A stretch of 64,000 nucleotides of DNA, taken from positions 1,209 through 65,208 of the forward strand of contig JBGOXX010000001.1 of the NCBI GenBank assembly GCA_041479345.1. The letters run 5' to 3'. The position numbers and the translations under genes are program-made. The stretch comes from Alphaproteobacteria bacterium. Its GTDB lineage: Bacteria; Pseudomonadota; Alphaproteobacteria; DATDPM01. Positions 413 through 28,525 of the stretch are shown one piece after another. The notes under the pieces are model-generated. The model saw only the letters and a list, made by a program, of their open reading frames with translations. It was not told the DNA's origin and made no database searches. The number at the start of each line of letters is the position of its first letter. The stretch's first letter is position 1.

Positions 413-838
413 TCAAAGGACGCATTTCGGCTCTTCGCACCAACACGGAATACCCTGTGGCACGAGATCGGTTTCCCGGTAATCCCACTTCAGTTCCGTG
501 CCTTTCGGGATCATTCGCTTGGCACGAACGACCAAAGTGCGTTCGATATAGCAATTGGGCTCGCAGGAATGATTCATGAAATCGACGCCGCCGATATCGT
601 CGGGGGTAATCGGGGACAGGGCGAAGAACTTCCCGTCCTGGACCGCCAAGTGGATCAACATATGCGGATTTTCGCTGCCGTAGTCGACGGTTCCGTCGGG
701 CTTGATATCGAGGGCCACGGCGCGGCCGTCGAAGATCGCCACCACGGCGTCCTTGGGGATGTCGGTGCGGCTGAACACACCGTGCTCCCCGCCCGGCAGC
801 TTCCGGATTTCCACATAATCGTAATTGGTCCAGCTCAT
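413..838 (-). CDS. SET domain-containing protein (putative protein-lysine N-methyltransferase), 141 aa
   Basis: Contains the SET signatures NHSCEPNC and ELKWDY together with an upstream GxG-type stretch. It is a compact, minimal SET domain. Confidence 0.8.
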   Translation of the reverse strand: MSWTNYDYVEIRKLPGGEHGVFSRTDIPKDAVVAIFDGRAVALDIKPDGTVDYGSENPHMLIHLAVQDGKFFALSPITPDDIGGVDFMNHSCEPNCYIERTLVVRAKRMIPKGTELKWDYRETDLVPQGIPCWCEEPKCVL

Positions 839-2603: not shown

Positions 2604-4067
2604 ATGCAGTATCCCAAAGGCTTGCCAGGCGAAAGCGAACCCGGCAGAGTGCCGCCTATGTCCGATCAGGCGGCAGCTGGATTCTTCGGCCGAACCCGAA
2701 GCGCCTTCGTCAATACCTGGCGCGACATTTTGGGCGCGGCCAAACACAAGCTTTCGGGCGCCGTCCATCCCGACCTGCCGCCGGACGATCTCGACCGCCT
2801 GCGCCAGCAGATCGAGGAGTGCTTGACCGCCCGCGGCGGCGAGGTTTCGGCACGGGCGCGGGCCGCCGATCTGGGCACCACCTATCTTGGCTTAAACGAT
2901 GCGGGCCGTATCCGTTTTCTCGGGCTTCTGGCCCGCGACTACGGCTTCGACCGGCGGATGGTGGAAACTACCATCGCCAATCTGCACAAAGCACCGGATG
3001 CATCGCGCTATGCCGCCGCCGCCGGCGAATTGCGCCAGGCCTTGGTTCCGCTGCGGCTGAAGTTATTGCGTCAGTTCAGCGCGTTGGGGGAGGGAATTAA
3101 ATTTCTCTCTGATCTTCGTGCGGACGTCATGCGTTACGCCAAATCCGATCCGACCCTGGTTTCCCTGGACGCCGAACTTAGAGACCTTCTGGCCTCCTGG
3201 TTCGATATTGGGTTCCTGGATCTGCGGCGCATCACTTGGGATTCGCCGGCAGCCCTTCTCGAAAAGCTCATCGACTACGAGGCGGTGCATGAGATCCAGT
3301 CTTGGGCGGACCTTAAGAACCGGCTCGATTCGGACCGGCGCTGCTATGCCTTCTTTCATCCCCGGATGCCGAATGAGCCCCTGATCTTTATCGAGGTCGC
3401 TCTGGTTTCCGGAATGGCGGACAATGTCCAGACCTTGCTCGATGAATTGGCGCCTCACCAGGACCCGAAGACCGCCGACAGCGCCATCTTCTATTCGATC
3501 TCGAATGCCCAAAAAGGTCTGGCCGGGGTGAGCTTCGGGGGCTTTCTCATCAAGCGGGTGGTGGACGATCTCGCCCATGATTTTCCAAACCTCAAGATCT
3601 TCGCGACCCTGTCGCCAATCCCAGGCTTCAGAGCTTGGCTTGAAGAGCAAATCGGCGTCGACCGGCCGGTATTGGCGATGCCGGAAGCCCATGACATCGC
3701 TCACGCCCTTGGCACCGAAAACGCGGATACGGCGCTTCTCGACCTGTTATGCCAACCCGGCTGGGCCGAGGATCCGGAAAAAGCGGAGATCATACGGCCG
3801 GTCCTGCTGCGGCTTTGTGCCCGCTATCTCCTGGTCGAGAAAAGGGGAAGCCAGCCGCTCGACCCGGTGGCCCGTTTCCATCTGAGCAATGGCGCGCGGG
3901 TGGAGCGGCTCAACTGGCTGGCCGACAAGTCGCCTAGGGGCCTTCGCCAATCTGCCGGCATCATGGTGAATTACCGGTACAAGCTCGAAGAGATCGAGGC
4001 CAATCATGAGGCTTATACCGGCGAGGGCCGGATCGCCGCGGCACCTGGCGTCCGCGGCCTGCTCTAG
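2604..4067 (+). CDS. malonyl-CoA decarboxylase (MCD family)
   Basis: About 470-487 aa with MCD-family regions (FFHPRMPNEPLIFIEVAL, SFGGFLIKRVV, FATLSPIPGFRAWL). An alternative start lies at 2658 (MSDQAAAGFF). Confidence 0.85.
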   Translation: MQYPKGLPGESEPGRVPPMSDQAAAGFFGRTRSAFVNTWRDILGAAKHKLSGAVHPDLPPDDLDRLRQQIEECLTARGGEVSARARAADLGTTYLGLNDAGRIRFLGLLARDYGFDRRMVETTIANLHKAPDASRYAAAAGELRQALVPLRLKLLRQFSALGEGIKFLSDLRADVMRYAKSDPTLVSLDAELRDLLASWFDIGFLDLRRITWDSPAALLEKLIDYEAVHEIQSWADLKNRLDSDRRCYAFFHPRMPNEPLIFIEVALVSGMADNVQTLLDELAPHQDPKTADSAIFYSISNAQKGLAGVSFGGFLIKRVVDDLAHDFPNLKIFATLSPIPGFRAWLEEQIGVDRPVLAMPEAHDIAHALGTENADTALLDLLCQPGWAEDPEKAEIIRPVLLRLCARYLLVEKRGSQPLDPVARFHLSNGARVERLNWLADKSPRGLRQSAGIMVNYRYKLEEIEANHEAYTGEGRIAAAPGVRGLL

Positions 4068-4100
4068 CCCCTGTCTAGCCGGGGCGCCTAAATCCAAGCC

Positions 4101-4598
4101 TCAAGCCCCGCGGGCTTCGAGCACTTTGTCTTCGGTCCGGATGCGGAACCACAGCACCACCGCGTTGAGGATCGAGAAAACCACCGCGATTTTCCACGCA
4201 CCCAGAATGAGCGGCGCAACCGCAATCTCGGCCACGACCACCACGTAATTGGGATGGCGGATGAATCGGTACGGCCCGCGTTTGACCAAAGGCGCGCCCG
4301 GCAGAGTGACGATTCGTGCACACCAATACCGGCCAAGACTGGCCATCACCCAAATCCGGAAGGCGAGCAGGGCAAGATAAAGGAACAGAAAGCGGAAATG
4401 GATGAAGGCTTCGGCCGGAATCAGAAACGCCATCGCCGCCAGCCAGCCCGCGTGAACGGCAATAATCCACGCATAGACCGGCTCATCGATGACCAGCGCC
4501 CCCTGCGCAACGAGACGCTGGAGATTGCGCCGGGAATAGATCAACTCGGCCAATCGCTGGAGAACGAGAAACCCCACGACGACGATATGCGGATTCAT
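4101..4598 (-). CDS. isoprenylcysteine carboxyl methyltransferase (ICMT/PEMT) family membrane methyltransferase
   Basis: Multi-TM protein with the RHPNY motif and a downstream conserved acidic residue (FIRHPNYVVVVAEIA). Its start codon overlaps the PKS stop by 1 nt at 4598. Confidence 0.8.
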   Translation of the reverse strand: MNPHIVVVGFLVLQRLAELIYSRRNLQRLVAQGALVIDEPVYAWIIAVHAGWLAAMAFLIPAEAFIHFRFLFLYLALLAFRIWVMASLGRYWCARIVTLPGAPLVKRGPYRFIRHPNYVVVVAEIAVAPLILGAWKIAVVFSILNAVVLWFRIRTEDKVLEARGA

Positions 4599-5638
4599 CA
4601 GGCGGTTCCCAAAACCAGGAACCCGGCGGTGAACCCGGGACCGAGCGACGACATCAGCTTTCGACCGCCAAGCGCCGCATCCAGCGTACGCCGCAGGACG
4701 AACATGATGGTTGCCGCCGACATATTTCCGAAGTCGCGCAACACGTCGCGGCCGAGAATCATGCCTCCGGGAGCGAGACCAAAGGCCTCTTCCAAAGCGT
4801 CGATCACCTTGGCGCCGCCGGGATGACAGACGAAATTGGCGATATCGGACAGCGCCAGCTTATGGCCGGACAGAAAGTTCTCCGCGGCAGCCCGCAGATC
4901 CGAACGGACCAAGGCCGGAATATTTCGGGAGAACACGACGCCAAGGCCGTCGTCCTCCACCTCCCAGCCCATGACATCGAGGGAATCGGGCCAGCAATAC
5001 TCGCCCCAGGCGGAAATTTCCGGGCCGTCGCCCTCGCAACTGACAATCGCCGCGGCGGCACCGTCACCAAACAAGGCGGTGGCAATGATGTTGCTTTTCG
5101 ATTGATCGGCGCGCCGGAAGGTGAGGGAACACAATTCGACCACGAGATAGAGAATTTTATGTTGGGGCGCGGCTTTCGCCATTGCCGCCGCCCGGGCCAA
5201 ACCGAGGACGCCGCCGGCGCAGCCGAGGCCAAATACCGGCAACCGCCAGACATCGCGCCGCATTCCCATGCGTTCCATGATCAGGGCATCGAGGCTGGGA
5301 GTCGCAATCCCGGTGGTGGACACGGCGACGATCCCATCGATGTCCTCAACGGCGAGACCGGTTTGGTCCAGGACCTGACGCGCCGCGCGTTCGAGAAGAT
5401 CGACGGCGTTCTCGAGGAAAAGCCGGTTCTTCTCCCCCCAGCCATGGGGCTTCTCGTACCAGTCGAGGGGGACGCAGGAATACCGGCACTCGATGCCGGC
5501 ATTGCCGTATATCCCCATCATGCGCTCGATCTCGCTCGAATTGTGGGCGAAGACCCGTCTGACGCGGGCCATCACGTCGGACTGAGTCATACGATAGCGC
5601 GGGACGACAGTGGTCAGGCCAAGCAAATGGGGGGTCAT
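4598..5638 (-). CDS. type III polyketide synthase (chalcone/stilbene synthase family)
   Basis: The catalytic triad context is present: Cys in FGLGCAGGV, His in FVCHPGGAKV, Asn in FGNMSAATIMF. Length is 346 aa. Confidence 0.9.
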   Translation of the reverse strand: MTPHLLGLTTVVPRYRMTQSDVMARVRRVFAHNSSEIERMMGIYGNAGIECRYSCVPLDWYEKPHGWGEKNRLFLENAVDLLERAARQVLDQTGLAVEDIDGIVAVSTTGIATPSLDALIMERMGMRRDVWRLPVFGLGCAGGVLGLARAAAMAKAAPQHKILYLVVELCSLTFRRADQSKSNIIATALFGDGAAAAIVSCEGDGPEISAWGEYCWPDSLDVMGWEVEDDGLGVVFSRNIPALVRSDLRAAAENFLSGHKLALSDIANFVCHPGGAKVIDALEEAFGLAPGGMILGRDVLRDFGNMSAATIMFVLRRTLDAALGGRKLMSSLGPGFTAGFLVLGTA

Positions 5639-5844
5639 CCGGGACTCCGGTTGGGGCAGCTCAATTTCGACGGCAAGGCCCAGATTGCCAGGAGTAGGGG
5701 GATTGCCAATGGCCCAGGCAGGCCTTCACGCTATTGTGACCTGCCGTCTCACCTTAATATTCCAAATATTCCAGGTTTTTGCGTTGCCGTTGCGCGGACG
5801 GCGAAGATCATGGTGTCATCCCGCCGGCAATAAATCGGGTTCTC

Positions 5845-6624
5845 ATGGCTAAATCCAAATCCAAGAAAAACAAACCACAGACCCAAGACTCGCTGCCTCT
5901 CGGAAACTCCGGTCCTGCCGGCCAGACAACCCCGCACCGCGGCGGCCTTGTAGGGCGGCTTCGCAACTATTTCCTCGCCGGGATCGTCGTCACGGCGCCT
6001 ATCGGCATTACCGCCTATCTGGTCTCGACTTTCGTCAGCATCGTCGACGGCTGGGTCACGCCGCTCATTCCCCCCCGTTATAGTCCCGAAACCTATCTGC
6101 CGTTCGGCATTCCTGGCTTCGGCCTGATTTGCGCCATCGTCGGCCTGATCTTGGTCGGCGCGCTGACCGCCAATGTGGTGGGACGGTTGTTGCTCCATGC
6201 CGGCGACAGGCTCATGGCCGCCATGCCGGTGGTGCGCGGCGTCTATGGTGCGGTCAAGCAATTGACCGAAACCGTGCTCGGCAAGCAATCCGCCGCCTTT
6301 CGCGAGGTGGTGCTGCTCGAATATCCGCGCCGGGGCATTTGGAGTCTCGGCTTCATCACCGGGATCACCGAAGGCGAGATTCAGGATCTGACCGAGGACG
6401 AGGTATTGAACGTCTTCGTGCCGACAACGCCCAATCCGACTTCGGGTTTCCTCCTCTTCGTGCCGCGGCGCGAACTGGTCGTTCTCGACATGTCGGTGGA
6501 AGAAGGGATCAAGATGGTCATCTCGGGTGGAATCGTAACGCCCCCCGACCGCCGTTCGGTCGAGAAGAAATCCCGTCAGCGCGGCCTTGCGGTTTCCCAT
6601 GAAGGCGGCAGCGGCCAGTCTTGA
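5845..6624 (+). CDS. DUF502 family membrane protein
   Basis: RLRNYFLAGIVVTAPIGITAYLV followed by a conserved DUF502 core (PVVRGVYGAVKQL, GIWSLGFITG, TTPNPTSGFLLFVPR). ATG at 5845; the ORF track starts earlier at 5779. Confidence 0.7.
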   Translation: MAKSKSKKNKPQTQDSLPLGNSGPAGQTTPHRGGLVGRLRNYFLAGIVVTAPIGITAYLVSTFVSIVDGWVTPLIPPRYSPETYLPFGIPGFGLICAIVGLILVGALTANVVGRLLLHAGDRLMAAMPVVRGVYGAVKQLTETVLGKQSAAFREVVLLEYPRRGIWSLGFITGITEGEIQDLTEDEVLNVFVPTTPNPTSGFLLFVPRRELVVLDMSVEEGIKMVISGGIVTPPDRRSVEKKSRQRGLAVSHEGGSGQS

Positions 6625-6634
6625 TCGGAAACAC

Positions 6635-7867
6635 TCATTCATATCGCAAGGCTTCGATCGGAAGAAGATGCGAGGCTTTGCGTGCCGGATAGAACCCGAA
6701 AAAGATTCCGACCGCCGCCGAGAACCCGACCGCAAGGAAAATGGCTTCGCCCCTAAGCTGAGTTTGCCAGCCTGCCCAATGGCCGATGGCTAGCGAGGCC
6801 GCTGCACCAAGCACAATGCCGGCCGCGCCGCCGACCAGGGAAAGCGTCGTTGCTTCAACCAGAAACTGGCTCAGGATTTCTTTGCCTCGGGCGCCGACCG
6901 CCATTCGCAACCCGATCTCCCGCGTCCGCTCGGTGACCGAGACCAGCATGATGTTCATGATTCCGATGCCGCCCACGACCAGCGATACCGAGGCGATGGC
7001 GGCCAGCAACATCGTCAAGGCGCGGGAAGAGGCCTGCTGCGCTTCCAAAATCTCGGAAAGATTGCGCAGCCAGAAGTCATCGTCTTGGCCGGGCTGAATT
7101 CGGTGCCGCTGGCGCAGCAGCAACTGAATCTGTTTCTGCGTCGCTTCGAGGTCGACGCCATTTTCCATTTTCACAAGTATAGCGCCGACGGCCCGGCGGT
7201 TTGCCTCGCTCGCCCCAAGAACCCGATTGCGCGCGGTGGTCAGCGGCATGATGACCACGTCATCCTGGTCCTGGCCTTGGAGGCTCTGGCCCTTGCGGTC
7301 GAGGATGCCGATGATGGTGAACGGAACCTTCTTGACCCGGATCATCTTTCCGACCGGATCGGTATCGCCGAAAAGCGTGTGCGCCGTGGTCTGGCCGAGC
7401 AAGGCGACTTTCGCCGCCTTTTCCAACTCGGCGTGTCCGAAGGGACGCCCCTCCACCACATCCCATTCCCGAGCCACGAAAAAATCGGGCGTCGTTCCGA
7501 ATACGACCGTTGACCAGTTGATGTCGCCATAGATGACTTGCGCGGCGCCGCGCATGCCGGGTGCGGCCACCCGGGTGCCGAACACATCGCGTTGGATGGC
7601 CAGCGCATCGTCTTCGGACAGCGTCAACTGGGTGCCGAAGCCGAGCCGAACGCCGCCGGAGGTAATGGCCCCGGACACGACGATGATGAGATTGGACCCG
7701 AGCGTGCGGATCTGGTCGGCAACCTGGGATTCGGCGCCCGATCCGACCGCAATCATCGTAATCACCGAACCAACACCGATCACGATCCCGAGCATGGTGA
7801 GCGTGCTCCGCAAGACGTTGAGCCGGAGTGCTTCCAGGGCGATGCGAATGCTGGCGAGAAGATTCAT
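6635..7867 (-). CDS. ABC transporter permease, FtsX/MacB-type (periplasmic domain plus 4 TM)
   Basis: N-terminal TM, a large periplasmic domain and a C-terminal FtsX-like TM bundle. The start overlaps the ATPase stop with an ATGA motif at 7864-7867. Confidence 0.85.
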   Translation of the reverse strand: MNLLASIRIALEALRLNVLRSTLTMLGIVIGVGSVITMIAVGSGAESQVADQIRTLGSNLIIVVSGAITSGGVRLGFGTQLTLSEDDALAIQRDVFGTRVAAPGMRGAAQVIYGDINWSTVVFGTTPDFFVAREWDVVEGRPFGHAELEKAAKVALLGQTTAHTLFGDTDPVGKMIRVKKVPFTIIGILDRKGQSLQGQDQDDVVIMPLTTARNRVLGASEANRRAVGAILVKMENGVDLEATQKQIQLLLRQRHRIQPGQDDDFWLRNLSEILEAQQASSRALTMLLAAIASVSLVVGGIGIMNIMLVSVTERTREIGLRMAVGARGKEILSQFLVEATTLSLVGGAAGIVLGAAASLAIGHWAGWQTQLRGEAIFLAVGFSAAVGIFFGFYPARKASHLLPIEALRYE

Positions 7868-8610
7868 GCCGCCGAACCGATGGATGAGAGCCGCGACAAG
7901 ACCTCGGCGGCGCGCCGCGGCGAGGGAACCGGGTTGTCGTTCACCAACCGGCCGTCCCGGAAACTCAAGATGCGGCGGGTAAAGGCCGCGACATCGGCCT
8001 CGTGGGTGACGACGACGACGGTGATGCCCTTGTCGTTCAATTGCTGGAACAGGCCCATGACTTCGACGCTGGTGCGGGAATCGAGAGCCCCGGTCGGTTC
8101 ATCCGCCAAAATCAGGATCGGATCGTTGGCGAGCGCCCGGGCGATCGCCACGCGCTGCTGCTCGCCGCCGGAAAGCTGCGACGGCTGATGATAAGCGCGT
8201 TCGGCGAGACCCACTTCCCGCAGCCGAGCCAAGGCTTTCGCCCGTCTGACGGCCGACGGGACGCCGGCGTAAATCAACGGCAGCTCGACATTTTCGATCG
8301 CCGTCATCCGCGGCAGAAGATTGAAATGCTGAAAGACGAAGCCGATCCGCCGATTGCGGATTCGGGCCAAAGCATCGCCGTCGAGTCGCGAAACATCTTC
8401 TCCGGCGAGAAAGTAACGGCCCGCCGTCGGGCTATCGAGACAGCCGAGAAGATTCATGAAGGTGGATTTGCCGGAGCCCGACGGCCCCATGATGGCAACC
8501 AACTCGCCCGGATCTATTTTGACCGAGACGTCGCGGACCGCAAGCAGCGGCCGATCGCCCATCCGGTATTCCTTGAAAAGATTGTCGGTCTCGATCAGCG
8601 GTCCGGCCAT
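7864..8610 (-). CDS. ABC transporter ATP-binding protein (MacB-like ATPase)
   Basis: Walker A GPSGSGKST, signature LSGGEQQRVAIARAL, Walker B ILILADEPTGALD. ATG at 8610 (MAGPLIETDNLFKEY) lies 1 nt after the adaptor stop; the ORF track extends spuriously to 8733. Confidence 0.9.
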   Translation of the reverse strand: MAGPLIETDNLFKEYRMGDRPLLAVRDVSVKIDPGELVAIMGPSGSGKSTFMNLLGCLDSPTAGRYFLAGEDVSRLDGDALARIRNRRIGFVFQHFNLLPRMTAIENVELPLIYAGVPSAVRRAKALARLREVGLAERAYHQPSQLSGGEQQRVAIARALANDPILILADEPTGALDSRTSVEVMGLFQQLNDKGITVVVVTHEADVAAFTRRILSFRDGRLVNDNPVPSPRRAAEVLSRLSSIGSAA

Positions 8611-8611
8611 C

Positions 8612-10153
8612 TTAGAACCTTGGGCCGCCAAATCCGGGCAGGGAATTGGACGCGTTTGCAGCGCCCGATGGTATTTCGCCGATGACCAGTTGTTGGCCTT
8701 CCTTAAGATCTCCGTCGGCAATCTCCGTGGCATTGCCGTCGGTAATGCCGAGCTTGACCGCGACCGGTTTTACGGCGCCTACGGAATCGATCGCATAAAC
8801 CTGGGGGCTTTTCGCAGCGTTCGCATCCTTGGCCGCCTGCAATTGGCCGTAGCGCAAGGCGCCATTCGGCACCAATAGGGCATTGTCCCTTTTCGCCGTC
8901 ACGACGCGAACATTTGCCGTAAGACCGGGCAAGAGAAGCAAATCGGGATTCGGCGCCGAAATCACCACATCGTAAGTCACGACGTTTTGCACCACCTGAG
9001 GCGCCTTGCGGACCTGAACGACATTACCTTCGAAGGTGATGTCGGGATGGGCATCGACGGTGAAGAAGACTTTTTGGCCGTCTTTGATGGCGCCCACATC
9101 CGCTTCGTCGATCGAGGCATCGACCTGCATCGCCCGAAGGTCTTGGGCGATGGTGAAGAGGACGGGGGCCTGGAGGCTGGCCGCCACCGTCTGGCCGACA
9201 TCGACATTGCGCAAGATCACCGTGCCGTCGACTGGTGCTCGGATATAGGTGTGGTCGAGATCGACTTGGGCAGCGCGCTCGGCCGCTTCTTTTTGCGCGA
9301 CTTGGGCCTGCGCCGTCTCCACATTCGCCGCCGCCGTTCGAATTTGGGCTTCGGCCGAGCGGATCGCCGCGCTCTGGCTCAATTCGAGGGCCTCGGTGCT
9401 TCCCAATTCGGCCTGGGCTTGGTCGAAGACGGACTGGGCCTTGTCTCTATCGGCGAGCGTTCCAGCGCCCGTTTGGGACAGCTTCAGTTTCCGGTCGTAA
9501 TCGCGGGTGGCATCGACCAGAGCTGCTTTCGCCTTGGCCTTTTGCGCCCCCGCAGAGACATGGTTGGAGCGGGTCGATTCCAGATCCGCCTGCGCGCGCT
9601 CAAGGCTGGCTTGCTGCATCGAGACCGACGCTTTGGCGACCGCAACATCGGCTTGCGCCTGGGCGAGCCGGGTTTCGAACGTATCCGGATCGATTCGGGC
9701 GATAAGTTGGCCTTTGGTCACCTCGGTGTTGAAATCGGCGTCGAGCTCCTTGATCTGGCCCGAAACCTGGGAACCGACCTGAACCGTGATCACCGCATTG
9801 ACCGTTCCCGAGGCAATGACCGTCGCCGTGACCGGCCCGCGCGTCGCGGCGCCCATCCGATAAGTAGGCGCGGCAGCCGGAGCGACCCAATGCCGGTAGC
9901 CAAACCAGGCCACGGCAACAATCGATATGGCTACGAGGCCAACCCAAACGACCCGTCGGCGGAGTTGGGAAGATCCAGCAAGAGATTTTCCGGCCGCGGC
10001 ATCGGAGGCCGCACCATCAGATGAGGGTGGCGTTGGCTTTAAATCCGGAGCAAGGCTCATCGCGGCTCGGTCGTTCATGGGGCCATGGCCTTTATATGGG
10101 GTGCAGCAGGAGTAATGCATAGTAACGCGTAACGCCGCTTTGACCTGGGTCAA
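8612..10153 (-). CDS. HlyD-family periplasmic adaptor subunit (MacA/DevB-like)
   Basis: Single N-terminal TM (VVWVGLVAISIVAVAWFGY), a long Ala/Gln-rich coiled coil, and beta-barrel/lipoyl-like segments. The start is uncertain (alternative M at 10078). Confidence 0.8.
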   Translation of the reverse strand: MTQVKAALRVTMHYSCCTPYKGHGPMNDRAAMSLAPDLKPTPPSSDGAASDAAAGKSLAGSSQLRRRVVWVGLVAISIVAVAWFGYRHWVAPAAAPTYRMGAATRGPVTATVIASGTVNAVITVQVGSQVSGQIKELDADFNTEVTKGQLIARIDPDTFETRLAQAQADVAVAKASVSMQQASLERAQADLESTRSNHVSAGAQKAKAKAALVDATRDYDRKLKLSQTGAGTLADRDKAQSVFDQAQAELGSTEALELSQSAAIRSAEAQIRTAAANVETAQAQVAQKEAAERAAQVDLDHTYIRAPVDGTVILRNVDVGQTVAASLQAPVLFTIAQDLRAMQVDASIDEADVGAIKDGQKVFFTVDAHPDITFEGNVVQVRKAPQVVQNVVTYDVVISAPNPDLLLLPGLTANVRVVTAKRDNALLVPNGALRYGQLQAAKDANAAKSPQVYAIDSVGAVKPVAVKLGITDGNATEIADGDLKEGQQLVIGEIPSGAANASNSLPGFGGPRF

Positions 10154-15500: not shown

Positions 15501-16110
15501 CGCCGGGAATCTTTTAGGCGACGAGCAATCGGGACATATCCGGGAAGTCGGCATCGAGCTCTATCAGAGTATGCTGGAACAGGCGGTCGCCGAAGTGCGC
15601 GGCGGCGGGCAAGCGGCGGAGGAATGGACGCCGCAGATTTCGATCAGCATGCCGGTTCTCATTCCGGAAAGCTACGTGGCCGATCTTGGTGTGCGGCTTG
15701 GGCTTTACCGGCGCATCGCCAATCTTCAGGAAGAATCCGAAATCGAGGCCTTTGCCGCCGAAATGATCGACCGCTTCGGGCCACTCCCGGCCGAGGCGGA
15801 AAATCTGTTTAGCGTGGTTGCCCTGAAGCGGCTATGCCGCGACGCCAATGTCGAAAAGATCGAGGCGGGGCCCCGGGGCGCCGTGCTGACCTTCCGCGAC
15901 AATCATTTCGCCAATCCCGCCGGGCTCATCGATTTCATCGCCCGCCACGCCGGGACGGTGAAGCTGCGCCCCGACCACAAACTGGTCGTTCAGCGGACCT
16001 GGGATACCGGAACGGACCGCGCCGCAGGCTTGCGCCAAATCCTCCGCGACATTGCGGCGATTGCCGCGCGGGCCAATTCCGTGGAAAAGAAGGGAGCAAA
16101 AGTCAGTTAG
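12598..16110 (+). CDS. mfd: transcription-repair coupling factor Mfd
   Basis: 1170 aa with GDVGFGKTEVA, DEEQHFGV, a UvrB-homology N-terminus and a TRG motif region. Confidence 0.95.
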   Translation: MENLRKFFETPGRVMIAGAPEGFDAQVVSRLAKKHGAERPRPILHVAEDEARMERMAECLRFYAPGLETLTFPAWDCLPYDRVSPNGEVVARRIETLAKLAGGIGEGEPLVVVTTVSAVLQRAPPRDLFREAIFAAGLGDRLSLDDLAGYLARNGYNRADTVREPGEYALRGGIVDLFPPGSEEPLRLDLFGDAIEAIRSFDPVTQRSDKRLERFSLKPVSEVLLTEESIGRFRSGYRDLFGAARRDDLLYEAVSAGRRYSGMEHWLPLFYERIETLFDYLPDAAVTLDPNAEDAVKARLDTIADYYAARVAPSPSDGEAPYRPLPPDRLYLGEAEWADLVAPRPVGVFSPFAAPEHAAGFVDAGGRPGRDFADVRARPDANVFDALRDLLTAEAKNGRHSIVACYSDGSRERFLGLLRDHGINGATLCASWHQVGHLAKESVALVILPIEHGFAAPDAFVVTEQDILGDRLARPPRRRRHAEAFIAEASNLGEGDFVVHVEHGIGRYEGLETLDVGGAPHDCLKLIYRDGDKLYVPVESIEVLSRYGSEGSAAELDKLGGAGWQARKARVRKRIKDIADQLLRIAAARELHDAPVLTPPEGLYDEFAARFPYAETDDQLTAIADSIADLASGRPMDRLICGDVGFGKTEVALRVAFTAVMSGVQVAVVTPTTLLARQHLITFRRRFEGLPVRIGSLSRLSSATEAASVKQGLANGSVDIVVGTHALLAKDLAFRNLGLLIVDEEQHFGVVQKERLKQLRANIHVLTLTATPIPRTLQMALAGVKEMSLIATPPVDRLAVRTFVLPFDPVVVREAILREHYRGGQTFYVCPRIEDLAGVAERIKKLVPEIRIATAHGKLAARQLETVMSEFYDGKFDLLISTNIIESGLDIPSANTLIVHRADMFGLAQLYQLRGRIGRSKQRAYAYLTLPPGRVLNPTAQRRLEILHALDSLGAGFSLASHDLDIRGAGNLLGDEQSGHIREVGIELYQSMLEQAVAEVRGGGQAAEEWTPQISISMPVLIPESYVADLGVRLGLYRRIANLQEESEIEAFAAEMIDRFGPLPAEAENLFSVVALKRLCRDANVEKIEAGPRGAVLTFRDNHFANPAGLIDFIARHAGTVKLRPDHKLVVQRTWDTGTDRAAGLRQILRDIAAIAARANSVEKKGAKVS

Positions 16111-17519
16111 CGCAAACTGTGCCGGGCGCGTTCGATGAGGCTCGCCGAGGTGTCGCCGGGAACGAAGTCGGCGCAGCCGGCTTGAAGCCAAACGGTGACC
16201 GCATCCTTCCCGCCATTGATGCCGAACTGAGTATTGAGGAGCACGCCGGAAATCCTATGCGCGACAATATCGGCGTCTTCCATTGCGGTTTCGGGAAGAA
16301 CGACGCAAAACTCTTTGTCACCAACCCGCGCCACCATGTCTTCGCTACGGACCAGCACCGAAATCCATTCCGCGACTTGGCGCAGGAGATCGTTAGCGGC
16401 GGCGGCACCGAAATCGCGGGCGACCCAGGCCAGGTTCTGGACCTGGAATGAGACCAAGGACAAATGCTTGCGCCAGGATGTGGACGCGGAAATCAAGCGA
16501 TCGAGATGAGCGAGCAAAAAGTCGCGGCCATAGACGCCGCCGGCCTCATGGATACCGGCCTTGCTCTGAATAGCCGCCAATTGATCGCGGATCGAAAGCC
16601 GCAGCTTTTGACGGTGCACCAGGGATTCGATCGCGGTATGAATTTCGGTTTGATCGAGCGGGCGAAGAATCAAGACGCTGGCGCCGCTCATATAAGGTTC
16701 TTCCACGCTGTCGAAAGCGCCGCGGTCGGCGATCAACAGGGCCGGAAGATTGAAAAGCCGGGTGTTGTTACGAATTTGGCCGCAGAGATAGAGCGCGTCT
16801 TCCGCATTGCCATCGATGACGATGACCAGGGCGTCATAGGATTCGCGATGGAGGAGGGATGCCGCGGCAAAAACATCCGGCGCGGTCACGAGGTCGAAAT
16901 CGCGACCGAGCGCTTTTTTGACATCGTCCAATTCTCGGTTGGCCGCCCCGGTGACGAGGATACGGCTGACTTCACCGGCCCGTGGCGCCGCAATCTTGCC
17001 GTCGATCTTCAAACCGAGAGCGCGGGCGGTGGCAATCCGATGCTCCAATTCCGTCCGCATGATCGCAAGCCGCACCAGCGGCTTGAGACGCAGAAGCAAG
17101 ATCGTCTCGCTGAAGGGTCCGATGACGACGTCATCGACGCCGGCATTCAGGGCCCGCCGCCGAAATGCCGGGGGAGCCAGTTCCGCCACCATGACGACGG
17201 GAATATGGGCGGTCTCGCCGCTCTTGAGGGAATGGGCAAGTTTGACGGCTTTTTCGCCGCCATCGCTGGCATCGATGAGAGCCAGGTCCGGATGTTCGTC
17301 CCGGCCCAGCTTGCGGGCGGTGACCGAGAAATCGCTGGCGGACGTGGCGTAACCCTGGCCGCGCAGCATTTTGGCAAGCTGACGCGCGCGGTTTTGGTCT
17401 TCGCTCAAAATCAAGATACGGGCGAGGCAGGCACCCGCAACCGCGGGCGCATTCGCGACGGTGCTGCGCGATGCTCCTTCACACGGAGTAAGACCGTCCG
17501 ATTTTCCCCAGAGACCCAT
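16107..17519 (-). CDS. PleD/PopA-like response regulator: REC-REC-GGDEF with a degenerate A-site
   Basis: Two receiver domains followed by a GGDEF fold. The active-site motif reads RVGDKEF instead of GG(D/E)EF, while an RxxD I-site (RSED) is kept 5 residues upstream. ATG at 17519. Confidence 0.8.
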   Translation of the reverse strand: MGLWGKSDGLTPCEGASRSTVANAPAVAGACLARILILSEDQNRARQLAKMLRGQGYATSASDFSVTARKLGRDEHPDLALIDASDGGEKAVKLAHSLKSGETAHIPVVMVAELAPPAFRRRALNAGVDDVVIGPFSETILLLRLKPLVRLAIMRTELEHRIATARALGLKIDGKIAAPRAGEVSRILVTGAANRELDDVKKALGRDFDLVTAPDVFAAASLLHRESYDALVIVIDGNAEDALYLCGQIRNNTRLFNLPALLIADRGAFDSVEEPYMSGASVLILRPLDQTEIHTAIESLVHRQKLRLSIRDQLAAIQSKAGIHEAGGVYGRDFLLAHLDRLISASTSWRKHLSLVSFQVQNLAWVARDFGAAAANDLLRQVAEWISVLVRSEDMVARVGDKEFCVVLPETAMEDADIVAHRISGVLLNTQFGINGGKDAVTVWLQAGCADFVPGDTSASLIERARHSLR

Positions 17520-17694
17520 GCTAGGACATATCCCCGAAATTGGTTACCAAATCGTGAGCAAATCCGCAGAAGCAAAAGATTTTTCAGGGAATTCTCCCCT
17601 GAATGATGGCTTAAAAATGCACCCCTTTAGCGGCCGCCGCCGGAAGGCTATTTTGATGGCTAGATTTCACGGAATTCGAATGAGGATTTGTGCA

Positions 17695-18225
17695 ATGCAA
17701 AAACGAAATGTCATTGCGCTTTGCCTGGCAACGATGCTGGCCATTCCAAGATTGGCGGTTGCGGCGGATTGTGCGGCGGGGATGCAGGATCAAGTCTATG
17801 CCGCATACGTCCGCACCGCACAACTGGAGCTCAATCTCCACGGTTACGATGCCGGGACCCCTGATGGAATGCCAAGTCCAAAGCTCGAATCAGCGGTCCG
17901 CGACTACCAGAAGGACGCCAAGCTTCCCGAGGACGGCTGCGTCAGTAAGGGCTTGGTGGATCATCTTGAATTCGTCTTGCCCCGGGTCGAGAAGGCGCGC
18001 AACCCGCGCGCCGAATCGGCGGTCGGGGAGGTGCAAAAGCTGTTGATGCAGCGCGGCTATTACAGGGGCACGGTGGACGGCATGAACGGATTGCAGACCC
18101 GCGATGCCATAAGGCGATTCGAAAAAGACGCCAACCTGCCGCTCACCGGCAAGGTCGACGAATCGCTGATCGCGAAAATCCAGGCGGCGGATCCGTCAAT
18201 TCGCGGCGATAAGACAGCTCCGTAA
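17695..18225 (+). CDS. secreted protein with two peptidoglycan-binding (PG_binding_1) repeats
   Basis: ATG at 17695 follows the GAGGA Shine-Dalgarno at 17682-17686. A signal peptide (MQKRNVIALCLATMLAIPRLAVA) precedes two LxxxGY..DG..G..T..AI..FQ/E...LP.TG repeats. Confidence 0.7.
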   Translation: MQKRNVIALCLATMLAIPRLAVAADCAAGMQDQVYAAYVRTAQLELNLHGYDAGTPDGMPSPKLESAVRDYQKDAKLPEDGCVSKGLVDHLEFVLPRVEKARNPRAESAVGEVQKLLMQRGYYRGTVDGMNGLQTRDAIRRFEKDANLPLTGKVDESLIAKIQAADPSIRGDKTAP

Positions 18226-18343
18226 TCCTTCAAATAAAAAGGATTTTCCCGCTGTAGAACCGCCGGCATTAACCGGATTTTAAGCATGACTAGCTCAACT
18301 GGGGGCTGTAGCTGGCGCTCCAGCGCGGGCGCTGGCGGGGGAT

Positions 18344-19453
18344 TTGCGGCATCGTGCCGCAATCGCGATAAGGCGGGCCACGACCGTGGCGGTTGCAGAC
18401 GTACTCACATCGCGCCGCATTTCCGCGGGCGCGGGAATTTCGCCGGAACCCGGATGGTTGACGCGCGGCCTCATTGCGCTCGACCGCCCCGGCCTGATCG
18501 CCGCCGTCAGCGTCGTCTCCATCGTCTTTTCGGAAATTATCGCAGGCATCATCAGCCTCACGATGCAGGGCACGATACCGGCGGTCGTCGTGGTAGCCGC
18601 CATCGTGACGCCGGGCATCGTGGCGCCGCTGGCGTCACTGCTGCTGGTCGCCGTCATCGATCACTTGAAACGTGAGGTCGACGACCGGAAGCGCGCCGAA
18701 GATGCGCTACGAATGGCCATTGAGATGGCCGAGCAGGCCAATCGCACGAAATCGACCTTTCTGGCCAATACCAGCCACGAATTGCGGACGCCGCTCAATG
18801 CCGTCATCGGCTTTTCCGATATGATTCGGGACGGCATGGGCAGCGGCGTTTCCTCCGACAAGCTGATCGAATACGCAACTCACATCAACGACTCCGGCCG
18901 TCATCTGCTGGCCGTGCTCAATGACATTCTCGATCTTTCAAAAGTTGAGGCCGGCAAGGTCGACCTCTTCGAGGAAGAAATCAATGTGGGCGCGATCATT
19001 CGCTCCTCCACGGCCCTGATGCGCGAGCGCGCCGATCACGGTTCCGTCGTGTTGGCGGCGGAGGTGCCGACAACCTTGCCGATGCTGTGGGCGGATCCCC
19101 GCAAACTCCGGCAGGTTCTGTTGAACCTGCTCTCGAACGCGATCAAATTCACCGCCGCCGGCGGCCAAGTGACGGTGGAAGCCGTCGCCGATTCGACCGG
19201 CGCCGTTTTCATTTCGGTGGCCGACACCGGCATCGGCATTGCCGCCAAGGATATCGCGCTGGCGCTTGCCCCCTTCAGCCAAGTCGACAGCGCACTCAAT
19301 CGCAAATTCGAAGGAACAGGGCTCGGTCTTCCCCTTGCCAAGGCCCTGGTCGAACTTCATCAAGGCCGGTTCGAGTTGGAAAGCGAGCCGGGCGTGGGGA
19401 CGACCGTCACCATATCGTTTCCGGCGGCGCGCGCCCGCCAGCGCGCGGCGTAA
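18344..19453 (+). CDS. membrane-bound sensor histidine kinase (HisKA + HATPase_c), PleC/DivJ/CckA-like core
   Basis: Two TM helices are followed by the H-box [24 protein letters not shown]1/G2 boxes and GTGLGLPLAKALVELHQG. The start is uncertain: TTG at 18344, with no early ATG. Confidence 0.85.
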   Translation: MRHRAAIAIRRATTVAVADVLTSRRISAGAGISPEPGWLTRGLIALDRPGLIAAVSVVSIVFSEIIAGIISLTMQGTIPAVVVVAAIVTPGIVAPLASLLLVAVIDHLKREVDDRKRAEDALRMAIEMAEQANRTKSTFLANTSHELRTPLNAVIGFSDMIRDGMGSGVSSDKLIEYATHINDSGRHLLAVLNDILDLSKVEAGKVDLFEEEINVGAIIRSSTALMRERADHGSVVLAAEVPTTLPMLWADPRKLRQVLLNLLSNAIKFTAAGGQVTVEAVADSTGAVFISVADTGIGIAAKDIALALAPFSQVDSALNRKFEGTGLGLPLAKALVELHQGRFELESEPGVGTTVTISFPAARARQRAA

Positions 19454-19507
19454 GATCCCGACGGTTTTTGCCCAACGGTTTCTGAGCGAAACTCACGCCC
19501 AAAATGA

Positions 19508-19543
19508 AAAGCCCGCGCGGCTTATGCCGCGCGGGCTTTTGCA
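19508..19543. terminator. bidirectional intrinsic terminator between the convergent kinase gene and cspA
   Basis: Perfect 11-bp GC stem gcccgcgcggc / gccgcgcgggc (19511-19521 and 19526-19536) with the 4-nt loop ttat. It is flanked by aaaa upstream and tttt downstream. Confidence 0.6.
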
Positions 19544-19579
19544 TCGACGGCTCCCACTGAGGGAGCCGAGAAACCGATA

Positions 19580-19792
19580 TTAGTCGGCAGGTCCGAGATC
19601 GACGGCCTTTGCACCGCGCGGCTCGTTCAGCACTTGGTAGGTCACGCGTTGACCTTCCATGAGCGAGCGCATGCCTGCACGTTCGACGGCCGTGATATGG
19701 ACGAACACATCCTTATCGCCCTGACCGGCGTCTGGGGTGATGAAGCCGTAGCCCTTGGTGGCATTGAACCACTTAACTGTTCCGGTAGCCAT
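19580..19792 (-). CDS. cspA: cold-shock protein, CspA family
   Basis: 70 aa with GTVKWFNATKGYGFITPD and the RNP motifs KGYGFI / VFVHI. Confidence 0.9.
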   Translation of the reverse strand: MATGTVKWFNATKGYGFITPDAGQGDKDVFVHITAVERAGMRSLMEGQRVTYQVLNEPRGAKAVDLGPAD

Positions 19793-20092
19793 GATTACTC
19801 CTTAATTTAACAAACAACAAAAACGCCGGCCGAGAGCGGCCGACGTTGTACGGGTCTCACAATTTCGGGAAGTAACCAGGCTAGGCCGGTTAGCTTTTAT
19901 GCATGGGCTCTGGAGCACGGTACGCCGATAACTTGTGTGACTTCGGGCCTTATATGGGCGGTTCTTTGCCGCCGCGCAACAAAAATCGACGATTATTAAC
20001 CGAGAACACCACAAGAACTCCCCGGGAAATCTGCGATTCGCGCGGGTAGCGGCGGGTTTCGCAAGAGCGTATGATTTTGGTGACGAGGGGCC
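19793..20092. promoter_or_regulatory. 300-bp divergent leader/promoter region, probably a long cspA 5' UTR
   Basis: Non-coding gap between the cspA start (19792) and the divergent CBS gene (20093). Cold-shock genes typically carry long structured 5' UTRs. Only spurious antisense ORFs cover it. Confidence 0.4.
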
Positions 20093-20536
20093 ATGAAGCA
20101 CAGAACCGTTTCGGAATTTGTGCGCGACCAAGTCGTCGCCGAACTTCCCCCCACCGCCACGGTGCGGGAAGCGGTTAGACTCATGGCCGACCGCCATATC
20201 GGCGCCGTCACGGTCACCGAAACGGGACGTCTGTCCGGCATCTTTACCGAACGCGACATGGTGAGCCGGGTCGCGGCACCGGGAAAGGACCCCGACCGCA
20301 CCACGCTCGCCGCCGTCATGACCGGGCATCCCCAGACGATTGCCGCGGATGCCTCGACCATCGAGGCTCTCCGGATAATGCAGGCGGGCGGGTTCCGTCA
20401 TTTGCCGGTCGTACATCACGGCAAACTTGTCGGCGTCTTGTCCTTGCGTGATTTCACCGGCACCGATTTGATCGAGATCGAACGCGCCTCCGATATCGAG
20501 CGGGCGGTGGCCGAAGGCGGGATACTCCACGACTGA
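20093..20536 (+). CDS. CBS domain-pair protein
   Basis: ATG at 20093 with a GACGAGGGG Shine-Dalgarno. Two CBS motifs are present (HIGAVTVTE...LSGIFTERD and RHLPVVHHGKLVGVLSLRD). Confidence 0.85.
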   Translation: MKHRTVSEFVRDQVVAELPPTATVREAVRLMADRHIGAVTVTETGRLSGIFTERDMVSRVAAPGKDPDRTTLAAVMTGHPQTIAADASTIEALRIMQAGGFRHLPVVHHGKLVGVLSLRDFTGTDLIEIERASDIERAVAEGGILHD

Positions 20537-20650
20537 CCGCCGGCCGCGGCTCGCCGGCTCCGCCGTTTTTCCTAATATTTCAATAAAATCCGCCGCCTCC
20601 AAATCAGGCAGTTTGTCTGCACATTAACGGCATCTTTACCGTCCGGAACG

Positions 20651-22903: not shown

Positions 22904-22908
22904 CCTCG

Positions 22909-23376
22909 ATGAAAGCCAATGGAAAACCCATCATCATCCTGATGGCGGATGATGATTCCGACGACCGCATGCTGGTCAAGGACGCGTTCGAAGAAAGCCG
23001 CCTCAACAACGATTTGCACTTCGTCGAGGACGGCGAGCAGCTCATCGATTACCTGTACCGTCGCGGAAATTTTGCCCACCTCAAGGGCCAGCCTTATCCG
23101 GGCCTCATCCTTCTCGACCTCAACATGCCGAAGAAAGACGGACGCGAGGCCTTGGCGGAAATCAAGAGCGATCCGGACCTACGCCGCATCCCGATCGTGA
23201 TTCTGACGACCTCGCGGGCGGAAGAAGACATTCTGCGGACCTACGATCTCGGCGCGAACTCCTTCATCACCAAGCCGGTGACGTTCGAAAGCCTGGTTCA
23301 GGTGGTGCAGGTTCTCGGCAATTATTGGGTCGAGATCGTCGAGCTTCCTTCGATCTGCGCGCCGGCGGCCGCGTAA
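22909..23376 (+). CDS. single-domain response regulator (CheY/Rcp1-like receiver)
   Basis: ATG at 22909 is preceded by the AAGGAG Shine-Dalgarno at 22895-22900. Receiver motifs are ILMADDDSDD, ILLDLNMPKKDG and a T...K pattern. Confidence 0.9.
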   Translation: MKANGKPIIILMADDDSDDRMLVKDAFEESRLNNDLHFVEDGEQLIDYLYRRGNFAHLKGQPYPGLILLDLNMPKKDGREALAEIKSDPDLRRIPIVILTTSRAEEDILRTYDLGANSFITKPVTFESLVQVVQVLGNYWVEIVELPSICAPAAA

Positions 23377-23397
23377 ACCAAACCGATAACCGAACCG

Positions 23398-24597: not shown

Positions 24598-24661
24598 CGC
24601 CGGTACTGCCATATCCAACGCTTGAGGGTTCCCGGCCCTCGCGCCGTTGAAAGGACGGCAA

Positions 24662-26593: not shown

Positions 26594-26637
26594 ACTCCGG
26601 ACAGTCCTGCTCTTGCTGCGTTCGCGGTTCGTGAAAC

Positions 26638-27662: not shown

Positions 27663-27704
27663 ATTACGCTGATTGCGCCGCGACGACGATGCGGCGGCGT
27701 GAAC

Positions 27705-28481: not shown

Positions 28482-28525
28482 TTTCCTGATCGCGTTTCCG
28501 GTCGCGCGCCATGCAAACGGCTGGG

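What the first reader, a model, noticed from the sequence alone, without database searches (positions are those of the whole stretch)
4101..5638. Translationally coupled type III PKS plus ICMT-family methyltransferase operon: candidate phenolic-lipid (alkylresorcinol/alkylpyrone methyl ether) pathway
A chalcone-synthase-family type III PKS with an intact Cys-His-Asn triad ends 1 nt inside the start of a membrane ICMT/PEMT-family methyltransferase, so the two are coupled through an ATGA overlap at 4598. In Streptomyces (srsAB) and Azotobacter cyst-lipid loci, this pairing makes O-methylated alkylresorcinol or alkylpyrone lipids. No product is known for this lineage. The operon sits in an accessory-looking left region beside a malonyl-CoA decarboxylase, a DUF502 membrane protein and an ABC exporter.
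Basis: partly seen in the sequence, partly recalled or inferred. Interest (0 to 1): 0.6.

Follow-up and report, generated by a model that had tools for sequence, protein, structure and literature searches.

The report
Type III polyketide synthase–methyltransferase lipid operon
This is a real two-gene operon, a type III polyketide synthase followed by a small membrane methyltransferase, of a well-known kind that makes methylated fatty pyrone or resorcinol lipids; it is an ordinary new member whose actual product has not been determined.

Summary
On the minus strand, a 346-aa type III PKS (5638..4598) and a 165-aa ICMT-family membrane methyltransferase (4598..4101) share one base. The motif is TGATG, not ATGA. 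The PKS has Cys140/His272/Asn305. Among solved structures it is closest to M. tuberculosis Pks11 (long-chain alkylpyrone synthase), well ahead of the RppA-type naphthalene synthase. It is about 40% identical to the PKS of Bacillus bpsAB-type and Streptomyces srsABC-type loci, and the methyltransferase is about 38% identical to their partners.

The pair is strongly conserved. In 78 of 80 related genomes the methyltransferase lies directly downstream, and in 53 of those the stop and start codons overlap. Three of three methyltransferase homologues looked up had the PKS directly upstream.

Three side claims fail. The region is core chromosome (mfd–recG–DUF502 synteny, flat GC), not accessory. The ABC exporter is lineage-specific, and the malonyl-CoA decarboxylase is a neighbour only in close relatives. 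The Azotobacter ars locus is not described as having this pairing; Bacillus bpsAB is the right second example.

JGI already names the exact protein 'alkylresorcinol/alkylpyrone synthase'. Verdict: a new member of a known kind, with the product (pyrone or resorcinol, chain length) unproven. Low interest.

The parts
4598..5638 (-). Type III polyketide synthase CDS (346 aa; ATG at 5638-5636, stop TGA at 4600-4598). Key residues: Cys140, Phe190, Trp225, Phe236, His272, Lys277, Asn305.
   Evidence: ORF. Pfam Chal_sti_synt_N/C and FAE1_CUT1_RppA. Best solved relative is Pks11 (2.4e-61), which is also the best fold match at TM 0.91. Key residues. The identical protein is in NCBI/JGI records under the JGI name 'alkylresorcinol/alkylpyrone synthase'.
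4101..4598 (-). ICMT-family integral-membrane SAM-dependent methyltransferase CDS (165 aa; ATG at 4598-4596, stop at 4103-4101). It has five predicted helices and the motif GPYRFIRHPNY...E124.
   Evidence: ORF. PF04140 at 3e-28. Ma-ICMT 4a2n matches at 1.8e-6 by sequence and is the top fold hit at TMq 0.64. The AF2 model has pLDDT 91.8. Invariant motif. Hydropathy.
4596..4600 (-). Stop/start junction TGATG. The PKS stop TGA and the methyltransferase ATG share base 4598, which suggests translational coupling.
   Evidence: Read directly from the sequence. In relatives, 53 of 78 junctions overlap: 47 by 4 nt, 5 by 1 nt and 1 by 8 nt.
5645..5648 (-). Shine-Dalgarno-like GGAG, 6 nt upstream of the PKS ATG.
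   Evidence: Sequence. The GAG is invariant in an alignment with three relatives, L088-L090.
5639..5845 (.). Divergent intergenic region between the PKS and the DUF502 gene, presumed to hold the operon promoter. No sigma-70 consensus was found.
   Evidence: Gene calls. The promoter scan found 0 sites. The region is poorly conserved apart from the RBS and a short GGTCACAA..GCGTGA block shared by the window, L088 and L089.

Best explanation
This is a two-gene bpsAB/srsAB-type operon for a methylated phenolic or pyrone lipid.

Inferred mechanism: the soluble homodimeric type III PKS loads a medium- or long-chain fatty acyl starter (as acyl-CoA or acyl-ACP) onto Cys140. It extends the starter with two or three malonyl-CoA units, with decarboxylation assisted by His272 and Asn305. 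It then releases the product either by lactonisation, giving a 4-hydroxy-6-alkyl-2-pyrone, or by aldol cyclisation, giving an alkylresorcylic acid or alkylresorcinol. The downstream five-helix ICMT-like membrane enzyme uses S-adenosylmethionine to O-methylate the free hydroxyl, yielding a more hydrophobic methyl ether that stays in the membrane. The 1-nt stop/start overlap would couple translation of the two proteins.

Shown here: domain identity, catalytic residues, fold, nearest characterised relatives, operon structure and its conservation. Inferred: starter, extender, ring type, site of methylation and physiological role.
For: Domains and triad.

Nearest solved relatives are long-chain acyl-primed enzymes. 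Pks11 is the top hit by sequence, profile and fold, followed by CylI and Pks18, with THNS well behind.

Identity to comparators: the PKS is 40% identical to the PKS of a Bacillus velezensis bpsAB-type locus and to that of a Streptomyces PKS-ICMT-FAD-monooxygenase (srsABC-type) locus. The methyltransferase is 38% identical to both partner enzymes, so the two genes have diverged in parallel.

Pair conservation: the methyltransferase is directly downstream on the same strand in 78 of 80 species-level genomes at 55-64% PKS identity, and 53 of those junctions overlap. Three of three methyltransferase homologues looked up had the PKS upstream. Cultured Azospirillum, Marinovum, Nitrobacter, Sphingomonas, Phyllobacterium and Denitrobaculum carry the same pair.

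Literature: BpsA makes alkylpyrones and alkylresorcinols and BpsB O-methylates them. [quoted passage not shown]

The methyltransferase scores 36 bits against a 160-bit cut-off for NCBIfam's true protein-prenylcysteine methyltransferase model. This fits a non-protein substrate.
Against: There is no chemistry for this clade. DquB, a homologous partner methyltransferase, gave no methylated product in E. coli (PMC9827899). Ring type cannot be predicted: the window has Trp225 at the position aligned with the Pks11/Bacillus 'MGW' Trp, yet DquA carries a Trp at the ArsB Trp281 position and makes only pyrones. The only characterised alphaproteobacterial enzyme, RpsA, uses methylmalonyl-CoA (PMC6274091), so the extender units could differ. 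I could not obtain the sequences of the biochemically characterised SrsA, BpsA, ArsB/C or RpsA proteins themselves; the comparators are inferred orthologues from annotated records. The AF2 loop at residues 224-238, which lines the active site, has low confidence (pLDDT below 50).
Confidence: 0.8

Rival explanations
1. Polyketide-quinone pathway, as in S. griseus srsABC or the M. smegmatis pks10 operon. The methylated alkylresorcinol would be hydroxylated and oxidised to an alkylbenzoquinone that serves as an alternative membrane electron carrier or envelope-protecting lipid.
For: The PKS is about as close to Pks11 and to the Streptomyces srsA-type PKS as it is to the Bacillus type. The literature links such operons to quinones (PMC5916927; PMC10896814). 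Azospirillum lipoferum has an SDR oxidoreductase directly after the pair.
Against: The defining third gene, an FAD-dependent monooxygenase, is absent. The operon ends at a convergent gene 33 nt downstream, and no such enzyme was found among the genes surveyed up to 43 kb. Close relatives also have only two genes. The Streptomyces comparator does have the monooxygenase.
Confidence: 0.1
2. RpsA-like chemistry. The PKS incorporates methylmalonyl-CoA to give methyl-branched alkylpyrones or alkylresorcylic acids, and the methyltransferase acts on these.
For: RpsA of Rhodospirillum centenum is the only alphaproteobacterial type III PKS characterised, and it behaves this way (PMC6274091). Pks11, the closest solved structure, is described as making methyl-branched alkylpyrones (title of PDB entry 4jap).
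Against: There is no sequence comparison with RpsA because its sequence was not obtainable here. No determinant of extender choice is known that could be read from the sequence. This is a variant of the main explanation rather than a true alternative.
Confidence: 0.07
3. The methyltransferase is functionally unrelated to the PKS (for example a phospholipid or protein-prenylcysteine methyltransferase) and the adjacency is incidental. Alternatively, the PKS is an RppA-type aromatic pigment synthase.
For: Pfam also matches PEMT (3e-8). RefSeq GO annotation on homologues says 'C-terminal protein methylation'.
Against: Adjacency holds in 78 of 80 loci, with overlapping codons in 53, and the reciprocal test gave 3 of 3. 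The NCBIfam prenylcysteine methyltransferase model scores far below its cut-off (36 against 160 bits). THNS is clearly more distant than Pks11. THNS has Tyr where the window has Trp225.
Confidence: 0.03

Closest known systems
Bacillus subtilis bpsA-bpsB (type III PKS BpsA plus ICMT-like methyltransferase BpsB; alkylpyrone and alkylresorcinol methyl ethers)
   Same: Both are two-gene operons with the PKS first and a small ICMT-family membrane methyltransferase directly downstream, and neither has a hydroxylase. The key residues are the same (C, F, W, F, H, K, N at window positions 140/190/225/236/272/277/305) in the B. velezensis bpsAB-type locus. Identity to that locus is 40% for the PKS and 38% for the methyltransferase.
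   Different: The phylum differs (Bacillota against Alphaproteobacteria) and sequence identity is only about 40%. bpsAB is tied to sporulation (PMC5686519), which this lineage is not known to do. The comparison used a B. velezensis locus that I infer to be orthologous, and its PKS is N-terminally disrupted in that record.
Dendrosporobacter quercicolus dquA-dquB (Sporomusaceae)
   Same: The same two-gene PKS/ICMT architecture is conserved across a whole family. The catalytic numbering is offset by one (DquA C141/H273/N306/F191/K278 against C140/H272/N305/F190/K277 here).
   Different: DquA makes only pyrones in E. coli, and DquB activity was not demonstrated. No direct sequence comparison was possible.
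Streptomyces griseus srsABC and the M. smegmatis pks10 operon (alkylresorcinol to methyl ether to alkylquinone)
   Same: The PKS is followed by an ICMT-like methyltransferase. A Streptomyces plasmid locus of this architecture is 40% identical in the PKS and 38% in the methyltransferase.
   Different: Those operons carry a third gene, an FAD-dependent monooxygenase, which is absent here.
Mycobacterium tuberculosis Pks11 (PDB 4jao/4jap)
   Same: It is the closest solved structure by sequence (36.6% identity, 208-211 bits), by profile (266 bits) and by fold (TM 0.91). It is a long-chain acyl-primed pyrone synthase.
   Different: I have no evidence of an ICMT partner at the pks11 locus. PMC5916927 states that an orthologous srs-type cluster is not present in M. 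tuberculosis.
Azotobacter vinelandii arsABCD (ArsB alkylresorcinol synthase, ArsC alkylpyrone synthase)
   Same: It belongs to the same enzyme superfamily and the same product class (phenolic lipids).
   Different: The cluster is described as two type III PKSs with type I PKS genes, and no ICMT-like methyltransferase is mentioned. Alphaproteobacterial homologues are reported at only about 29% identity to ArsC (PMC8776678). ArsC (3VS8) was not among the 60 best PDB matches.
RppA/THNS (1,3,6,8-tetrahydroxynaphthalene synthase, PDB 1u0m)
   Same: It has the type III PKS fold and triad.
   Different: Identity is 28.6% (150 bits) and it ranks 24th by fold. It has Tyr at the position of Trp225 and Arg at the position of Lys277. 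It is malonyl-CoA-primed.

Membership tests
Type III polyketide synthase (chalcone synthase superfamily) | Chal_sti_synt N- and C-terminal domains above Pfam gathering score; stand-alone protein of about 350 aa with the thiolase fold | tested here: met
   73.9 and 50.3 bits against a cut-off of 27. The AF2 model (pTM 0.88) superposes on type III PKS structures at TM 0.85-0.91.
Type III polyketide synthase (chalcone synthase superfamily) | Cys-His-Asn catalytic triad | tested here: met
   Cys140, His272 and Asn305 align to the Pks11 and THNS catalytic residues and are invariant in alignment A1.
BpsA/SrsA-type alkylresorcinol/alkylpyrone synthase | Closer to long-chain acyl-primed bacterial enzymes than to RppA, DpgA or other aromatic-product type III PKSs | tested here: met
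   Pks11 scores above THNS in all three comparisons. The DpgA equivalog model scores 155 bits against a 425-bit cut-off. Direct comparison with the biochemically characterised BpsA, SrsA, ArsB/C and RpsA sequences was not possible.
BpsA/SrsA-type alkylresorcinol/alkylpyrone synthase | ICMT-like methyltransferase gene directly downstream in the same operon | tested here: met
   1-nt overlap in the window. Present in 78 of 80 relatives.
BpsA/SrsA-type alkylresorcinol/alkylpyrone synthase | Product is a fatty-acyl-primed tri- or tetraketide pyrone or resorcinol | not testable with these tools
   This needs an enzyme assay or LC-MS. The Trp at the ArsB-281-type position is not predictive.
ICMT family (PF04140) membrane methyltransferase, BpsB/SrsB type | ICMT domain above gathering score, with the C-terminal RHPxY...E cofactor-binding motif | tested here: met
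   98.5 bits against a cut-off of 24. R114-H115-P116-N117-Y118 and E124 are invariant in 20 homologues and align to the RHPMY of Ma-ICMT.
ICMT family (PF04140) membrane methyltransferase, BpsB/SrsB type | Multi-helix integral membrane fold like Ma-ICMT | tested here: met
   The AF2 model (pLDDT 91.8) has five long helices. The top PDB fold hit is 4a2n at TMq 0.64 and probability 1.00, followed by eukaryotic ICMT.
Protein-S-isoprenylcysteine O-methyltransferase proper (NCBIfam NF040696) | Score above the equivalog cut-off | tested here: not met
   36.2 bits against a cut-off of 160. It shares the fold family but is not an orthologue of the protein-modifying enzyme.
srsABC / pks10-type polyketide-quinone operon | Third gene encoding an FAD-dependent monooxygenase (hydroxylase) | tested here: not met
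   The operon has two genes, bounded by a convergent malonyl-CoA decarboxylase gene and a divergent DUF502 gene. No such monooxygenase was found among the genes surveyed up to 43 kb. It is present in the Streptomyces comparator.
Azotobacter ars-type cyst-lipid cluster | Two type III PKSs with dedicated type I FAS/PKS genes supplying the starter | tested here: not met
   There is a single PKS and no type I synthase in the surveyed region. The cluster composition is taken from PMC5916927.

The most novel reading that the evidence does not exclude
This alphaproteobacterial clade of the PKS-methyltransferase pair is a vertically inherited, core-chromosome trait. It is found in at least 586 species-level genomes and often sits divergently beside a DUF502 membrane-protein gene next to recG. 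On this reading it makes a so-far undescribed housekeeping membrane lipid (a methylated alkylpyrone or alkylresorcinol). DUF502 would be a functional partner, for example in handling or localising the lipid. That would give the clade a product and DUF502 its first bacterial role.
Probability: 0.1. Interest if true: 0.5.

Novelty: new member of a known kind. Interest (0 to 1): 0.2.

Why it matters
If the product were determined, it would fill a gap. Type III PKS/ICMT pairs have been studied in Bacillota, Negativicutes and Actinomycetota. The large alphaproteobacterial clade, which is common in soil and freshwater metagenome-assembled genomes and is also present in cultured Azospirillum, Dongia, Denitrobaculum, Nitrobacter and Sphingomonas, has no known metabolite or phenotype. 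In other bacteria such lipids have been linked to dormancy, antibiotic tolerance and anaerobic respiration. As a genome-scan finding, however, it is a routine annotation that standard pipelines already make.

Tried and rejected
(1) Functional link to the malonyl-CoA decarboxylase: rejected. The gene is adjacent only in relatives at 78% PKS identity or more (L088, L089). It is three genes away at 70% (L090). It lies within 6 kb in just 2 of 80 distant loci, and there on the other side of the PKS.

(2) Link to the ABC exporter: rejected. The MacB/ABC/HlyD operon lies between recG and DUF502 only in the window lineage. L089 and L090 have nothing there, and L088 has an unrelated ABC-2 transporter.

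(3) Accessory island or horizontal transfer: rejected for this locus. GC is flat, there is no flanking tRNA (the only tRNA is at 26.6 kb), and the surrounding synteny is conserved core genes.

(4) Predicting pyrone or resorcinol from the ArsB Trp281 / ArsC Gly284 rule: abandoned, because DquA violates the rule.

(5) The promoter and terminator scan found nothing useful.

(6) Primary papers were not held by the paper tool: Satou 2013, Nakano 2009 and 2012, Anand 2015. As a result the characterised SrsA, BpsA, ArsB/C and RpsA sequences could not be aligned directly. I used annotated Bacillus and Streptomyces plasmid-collection loci as stand-ins.

(7) L040 (Eremiobacterota) and L075 (Caulobacteraceae) genuinely lack the methyltransferase. 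Three partial hits (L033, L037, L063) were not investigated further.
Full report
**Observation.** The six-frame ORF list gives two minus-strand ORFs exactly at the reported coordinates. One is 4598..5638 (346 aa, ATG start) and the other is 4101..4598 (165 aa, ATG start). Pfam places the first in the chalcone/stilbene synthase family: Chal_sti_synt_N 1.6e-20, Chal_sti_synt_C 3.4e-13 and FAE1_CUT1_RppA 6e-16. It places the second in the ICMT family (PF04140, 3e-28) with a weaker PEMT match. Read on the minus strand, the junction is ...GCC TGA TG AAT.... The PKS stop TGA occupies 4600-4598 and the methyltransferase ATG occupies 4598-4596, so the genes share one base. Its label 'ATGA overlap' is not, because the motif is TGATG. 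A GGAG lies 6 nt upstream of the PKS ATG and is conserved in relatives.

**The PKS.** Against PDB sequences, the best match by a wide margin is M. tuberculosis Pks11 (2.4e-61, 211 bits). Next come S. coelicolor THNS (RppA type) at 145 bits and the cyanobacterial resorcinol-forming CylI at 144 bits. A profile built from 18 family members gives the same order: 266, 201 and 196 bits.
- An AlphaFold model (pLDDT 83.6, pTM 0.88; the loop at residues 224-238 is low confidence) superposes best on Pks11 (TM 0.91). CylI and Pks18 follow, all enzymes primed with long acyl chains, and THNS ranks 24th.
- Cys140, His272 and Asn305 align with the catalytic triad. Phe190, Phe236, Trp225 and Lys277 are invariant in the family.
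- DquA numbering in PMC9827899 (C141, F191, H273, K278, N306) is offset by one from this protein. Lys277 therefore sits at the position that paper associates with ACP-delivered starters, although DquA also accepted acyl-CoA.
- NCBIfam's DpgA equivalog model scores far below its cut-off (155 against 425 bits).

**The methyltransferase.** It matches Methanosarcina Ma-ICMT (4a2n) by sequence at 1.8e-6, including the RHPxY motif. R114-H115-P116-N117-Y118 and E124 are invariant across 20 homologues. The AlphaFold model (pLDDT 91.8) has five long helices, and its best PDB fold match is 4a2n (TMq 0.64, probability 1.00), then eukaryotic ICMT. It scores only 36 bits against the 160-bit cut-off of NCBIfam's true protein-prenylcysteine methyltransferase model. 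It therefore shares the fold family but is not an orthologue of the protein-modifying enzyme.

**Conservation of the pair.** The identical PKS occurs in several NCBI metagenome-assembled genomes and a JGI metagenome with the same neighbours, and JGI already names it 'alkylresorcinol/alkylpyrone synthase'.
I analysed the best 80 loci, at 55-64% identity.
- tblastn found the methyltransferase directly downstream on the same strand in 78 of the 80. Four of these hits are cut by contig ends and three are partial internal hits. Two loci genuinely lack the gene.
- I assigned start codons heuristically. On that basis 47 junctions overlap by 4 nt, 5 by 1 nt and 1 by 8 nt, and most of the rest have gaps of 2-41 nt.
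One was from cultured Denitrobaculum tricleocarpae. All three have the PKS immediately upstream.
- In the plasmid collection the same pair occurs on replicons of Azospirillum, Marinovum, Sphingomonas, Nitrobacter, Phyllobacterium, Sulfitobacter and others. Rhizobium etli p42d carries a solo PKS at 42% identity.

**Relation to characterised systems.** The literature treats 'type III PKS plus ICMT-like methyltransferase' as a recognised two-gene unit. BpsA of B. subtilis makes long-chain alkylpyrones and some alkylresorcinols, and BpsB O-methylates them. dquA-dquB is the equivalent in Sporomusaceae (PMC9827899; PMC5686519). In S. griseus (srs operon) and M. smegmatis (pks10 operon), alkylresorcinols are O-methylated and oxidised to quinones (PMC5916927; PMC10896814).

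I could not obtain the characterised protein sequences themselves, so I used annotated stand-ins.
- The first is a B. velezensis record with the ICMT gene next to fbpC and a dynamin-family gene. I infer this to be the bpsAB locus. Its PKS is disrupted at the N-terminus.
- The second is a Streptomyces linear plasmid with PKS, ICMT and an FAD-dependent monooxygenase, which is the srsABC architecture.
- The window PKS is 40% identical to both, 36.6% to Pks11 and 28.6% to THNS. The window methyltransferase is 38% identical to both partner enzymes.
- In an NJ tree rooted on THNS, the window falls in an alphaproteobacterial clade beside the Pks11/srsA-type and Bacillus groups. THNS alone has Tyr in place of Trp225 and Arg in place of Lys277.

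**Context.**
- GC is flat across the window, 0.59-0.64, and 0.612 at the locus. The only tRNA is 21 kb away.
- The surrounding genes are core: recG, mfd, metG, holB, a D-Ala-D-Ala carboxypeptidase, tatD and others.
- Relatives at 70-78% PKS identity keep the order mfd - sdhE - recG - (variable) - DUF502 <> PKS - methyltransferase. In two of the three, the decarboxylase, asparaginase and SET-domain genes follow as in the window.
- The MacB/ABC/HlyD genes at 6635-10153 are present only in the window lineage. L089 and L090 have nothing at that position, and L088 has a different transporter.
- The malonyl-CoA decarboxylase is adjacent only in the closest relatives, and lies within 6 kb in 2 of 80 distant loci. 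Neither gene is a conserved partner.
- DUF502 lies immediately upstream and divergent in about 23 of the 80 distant loci and in all close relatives. I did not resolve whether that reflects function or inherited recG-DUF502 synteny.
The ars cluster is described as two type III PKSs plus type I PKS genes, with no ICMT partner mentioned.

**Mechanism and limits.** The best-supported model is that the PKS condenses a fatty acyl starter with malonyl units into an alkylpyrone and/or alkylresorcinol (or resorcylic acid). The membrane methyltransferase then O-methylates it with SAM, giving a membrane-resident methyl ether. I put 0.8 on this class-level statement. Four things remain open:
- Ring type. 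The Trp/Gly rule from ArsB and ArsC fails for DquA.
- Chain length.
- Extender choice. RpsA of Rhodospirillum centenum, the only characterised alphaproteobacterial enzyme, uses methylmalonyl-CoA.
- Physiological role.

A quinone end-product is less likely because the hydroxylase gene that defines srsABC-type operons is absent, both from the operon and from the genes surveyed up to 43 kb.

**Verdict.** This is a correct and carefully observed finding of an ordinary thing. It is a new, uncharacterised member of the established bpsAB/srsAB type of type III PKS-methyltransferase operon, already labelled as such by a standard annotation pipeline. Interest is low (0.2). The residual interest lies in the size and core-genome position of the alphaproteobacterial clade and the absence of any known product for it.

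Noticed in passing
window 5846-6624 (+); also L088-L090 and about 23 of loci L005-L084: A DUF502 membrane-protein gene lies divergently next to the PKS in the window, in all close relatives and in roughly a quarter of distant relatives, usually with recG beyond it. In the window an ABC operon has been inserted between recG and DUF502, not between DUF502 and the PKS. I did not resolve whether this is a functional link or inherited synteny.
   Followed up: partly
window 6635-10153 (-): A MacB-type permease, an ABC ATPase and a HlyD-family adaptor form a three-gene efflux operon with overlapping genes. It is present only in the window lineage at this position. Relatives have nothing there (L089, L090) or an ABC-2 transporter (L088).
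   Followed up: partly
L010, L012, L038, L070: These contigs come from metagenome-assembled genomes labelled Udaeobacter, Acidiferrales, Flavobacteriales and Sulfotelmatobacter. L010, L038 and L070 carry the alphaproteobacterial recG-DUF502-PKS synteny, with recG 59-68% identical to the window. L012 was flagged on its PKS-methyltransferase hits only, with no recG or DUF502 hit. They are probably mis-binned contigs.
   Followed up: no
L027, L035, L043, L052 (Eremiobacterota/Cybelea); L040: Eremiobacterota genomes carry the same PKS-methyltransferase pair at about 58% identity in a different gene context. One of them, L040, has lost the methyltransferase. This may be inter-phylum transfer.
   Followed up: no
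window 16107-30366: This stretch is dense in signalling genes: a response-regulator-GGDEF protein, four or five HisKA/HATPase histidine kinases (some with PAS and GAF domains or receiver domains), and a CBS-domain kinase.
   Followed up: no
window 413-838 (-): A small 141-aa SET-domain protein (PF00856, 1.5e-12) is conserved at the same relative position in L088 and L089.
   Followed up: no
window 4001-6000: This 2-kb bin has the highest AT skew in the window (+0.178). The coding strand of the two genes is unusually T-rich over A. This may reflect the hydrophobic methyltransferase, but I did not examine it.
   Followed up: no
L085 5645-6658 (Azospirillum lipoferum 4B plasmid AZO_p3): In Azospirillum an SDR-family oxidoreductase gene directly follows the PKS-methyltransferase pair. 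This suggests a three-gene variant with an extra tailoring step.
   Followed up: no
L096 (CP031730.1, labelled Stenotrophomonas rhizophila plasmid): This record carries fosB, rsgA, rpmG and a PKS-ICMT pair that groups with the Bacillus bpsA-type protein in the NJ tree. The record may be mislabelled or may be Bacillota-derived DNA.
   Followed up: no
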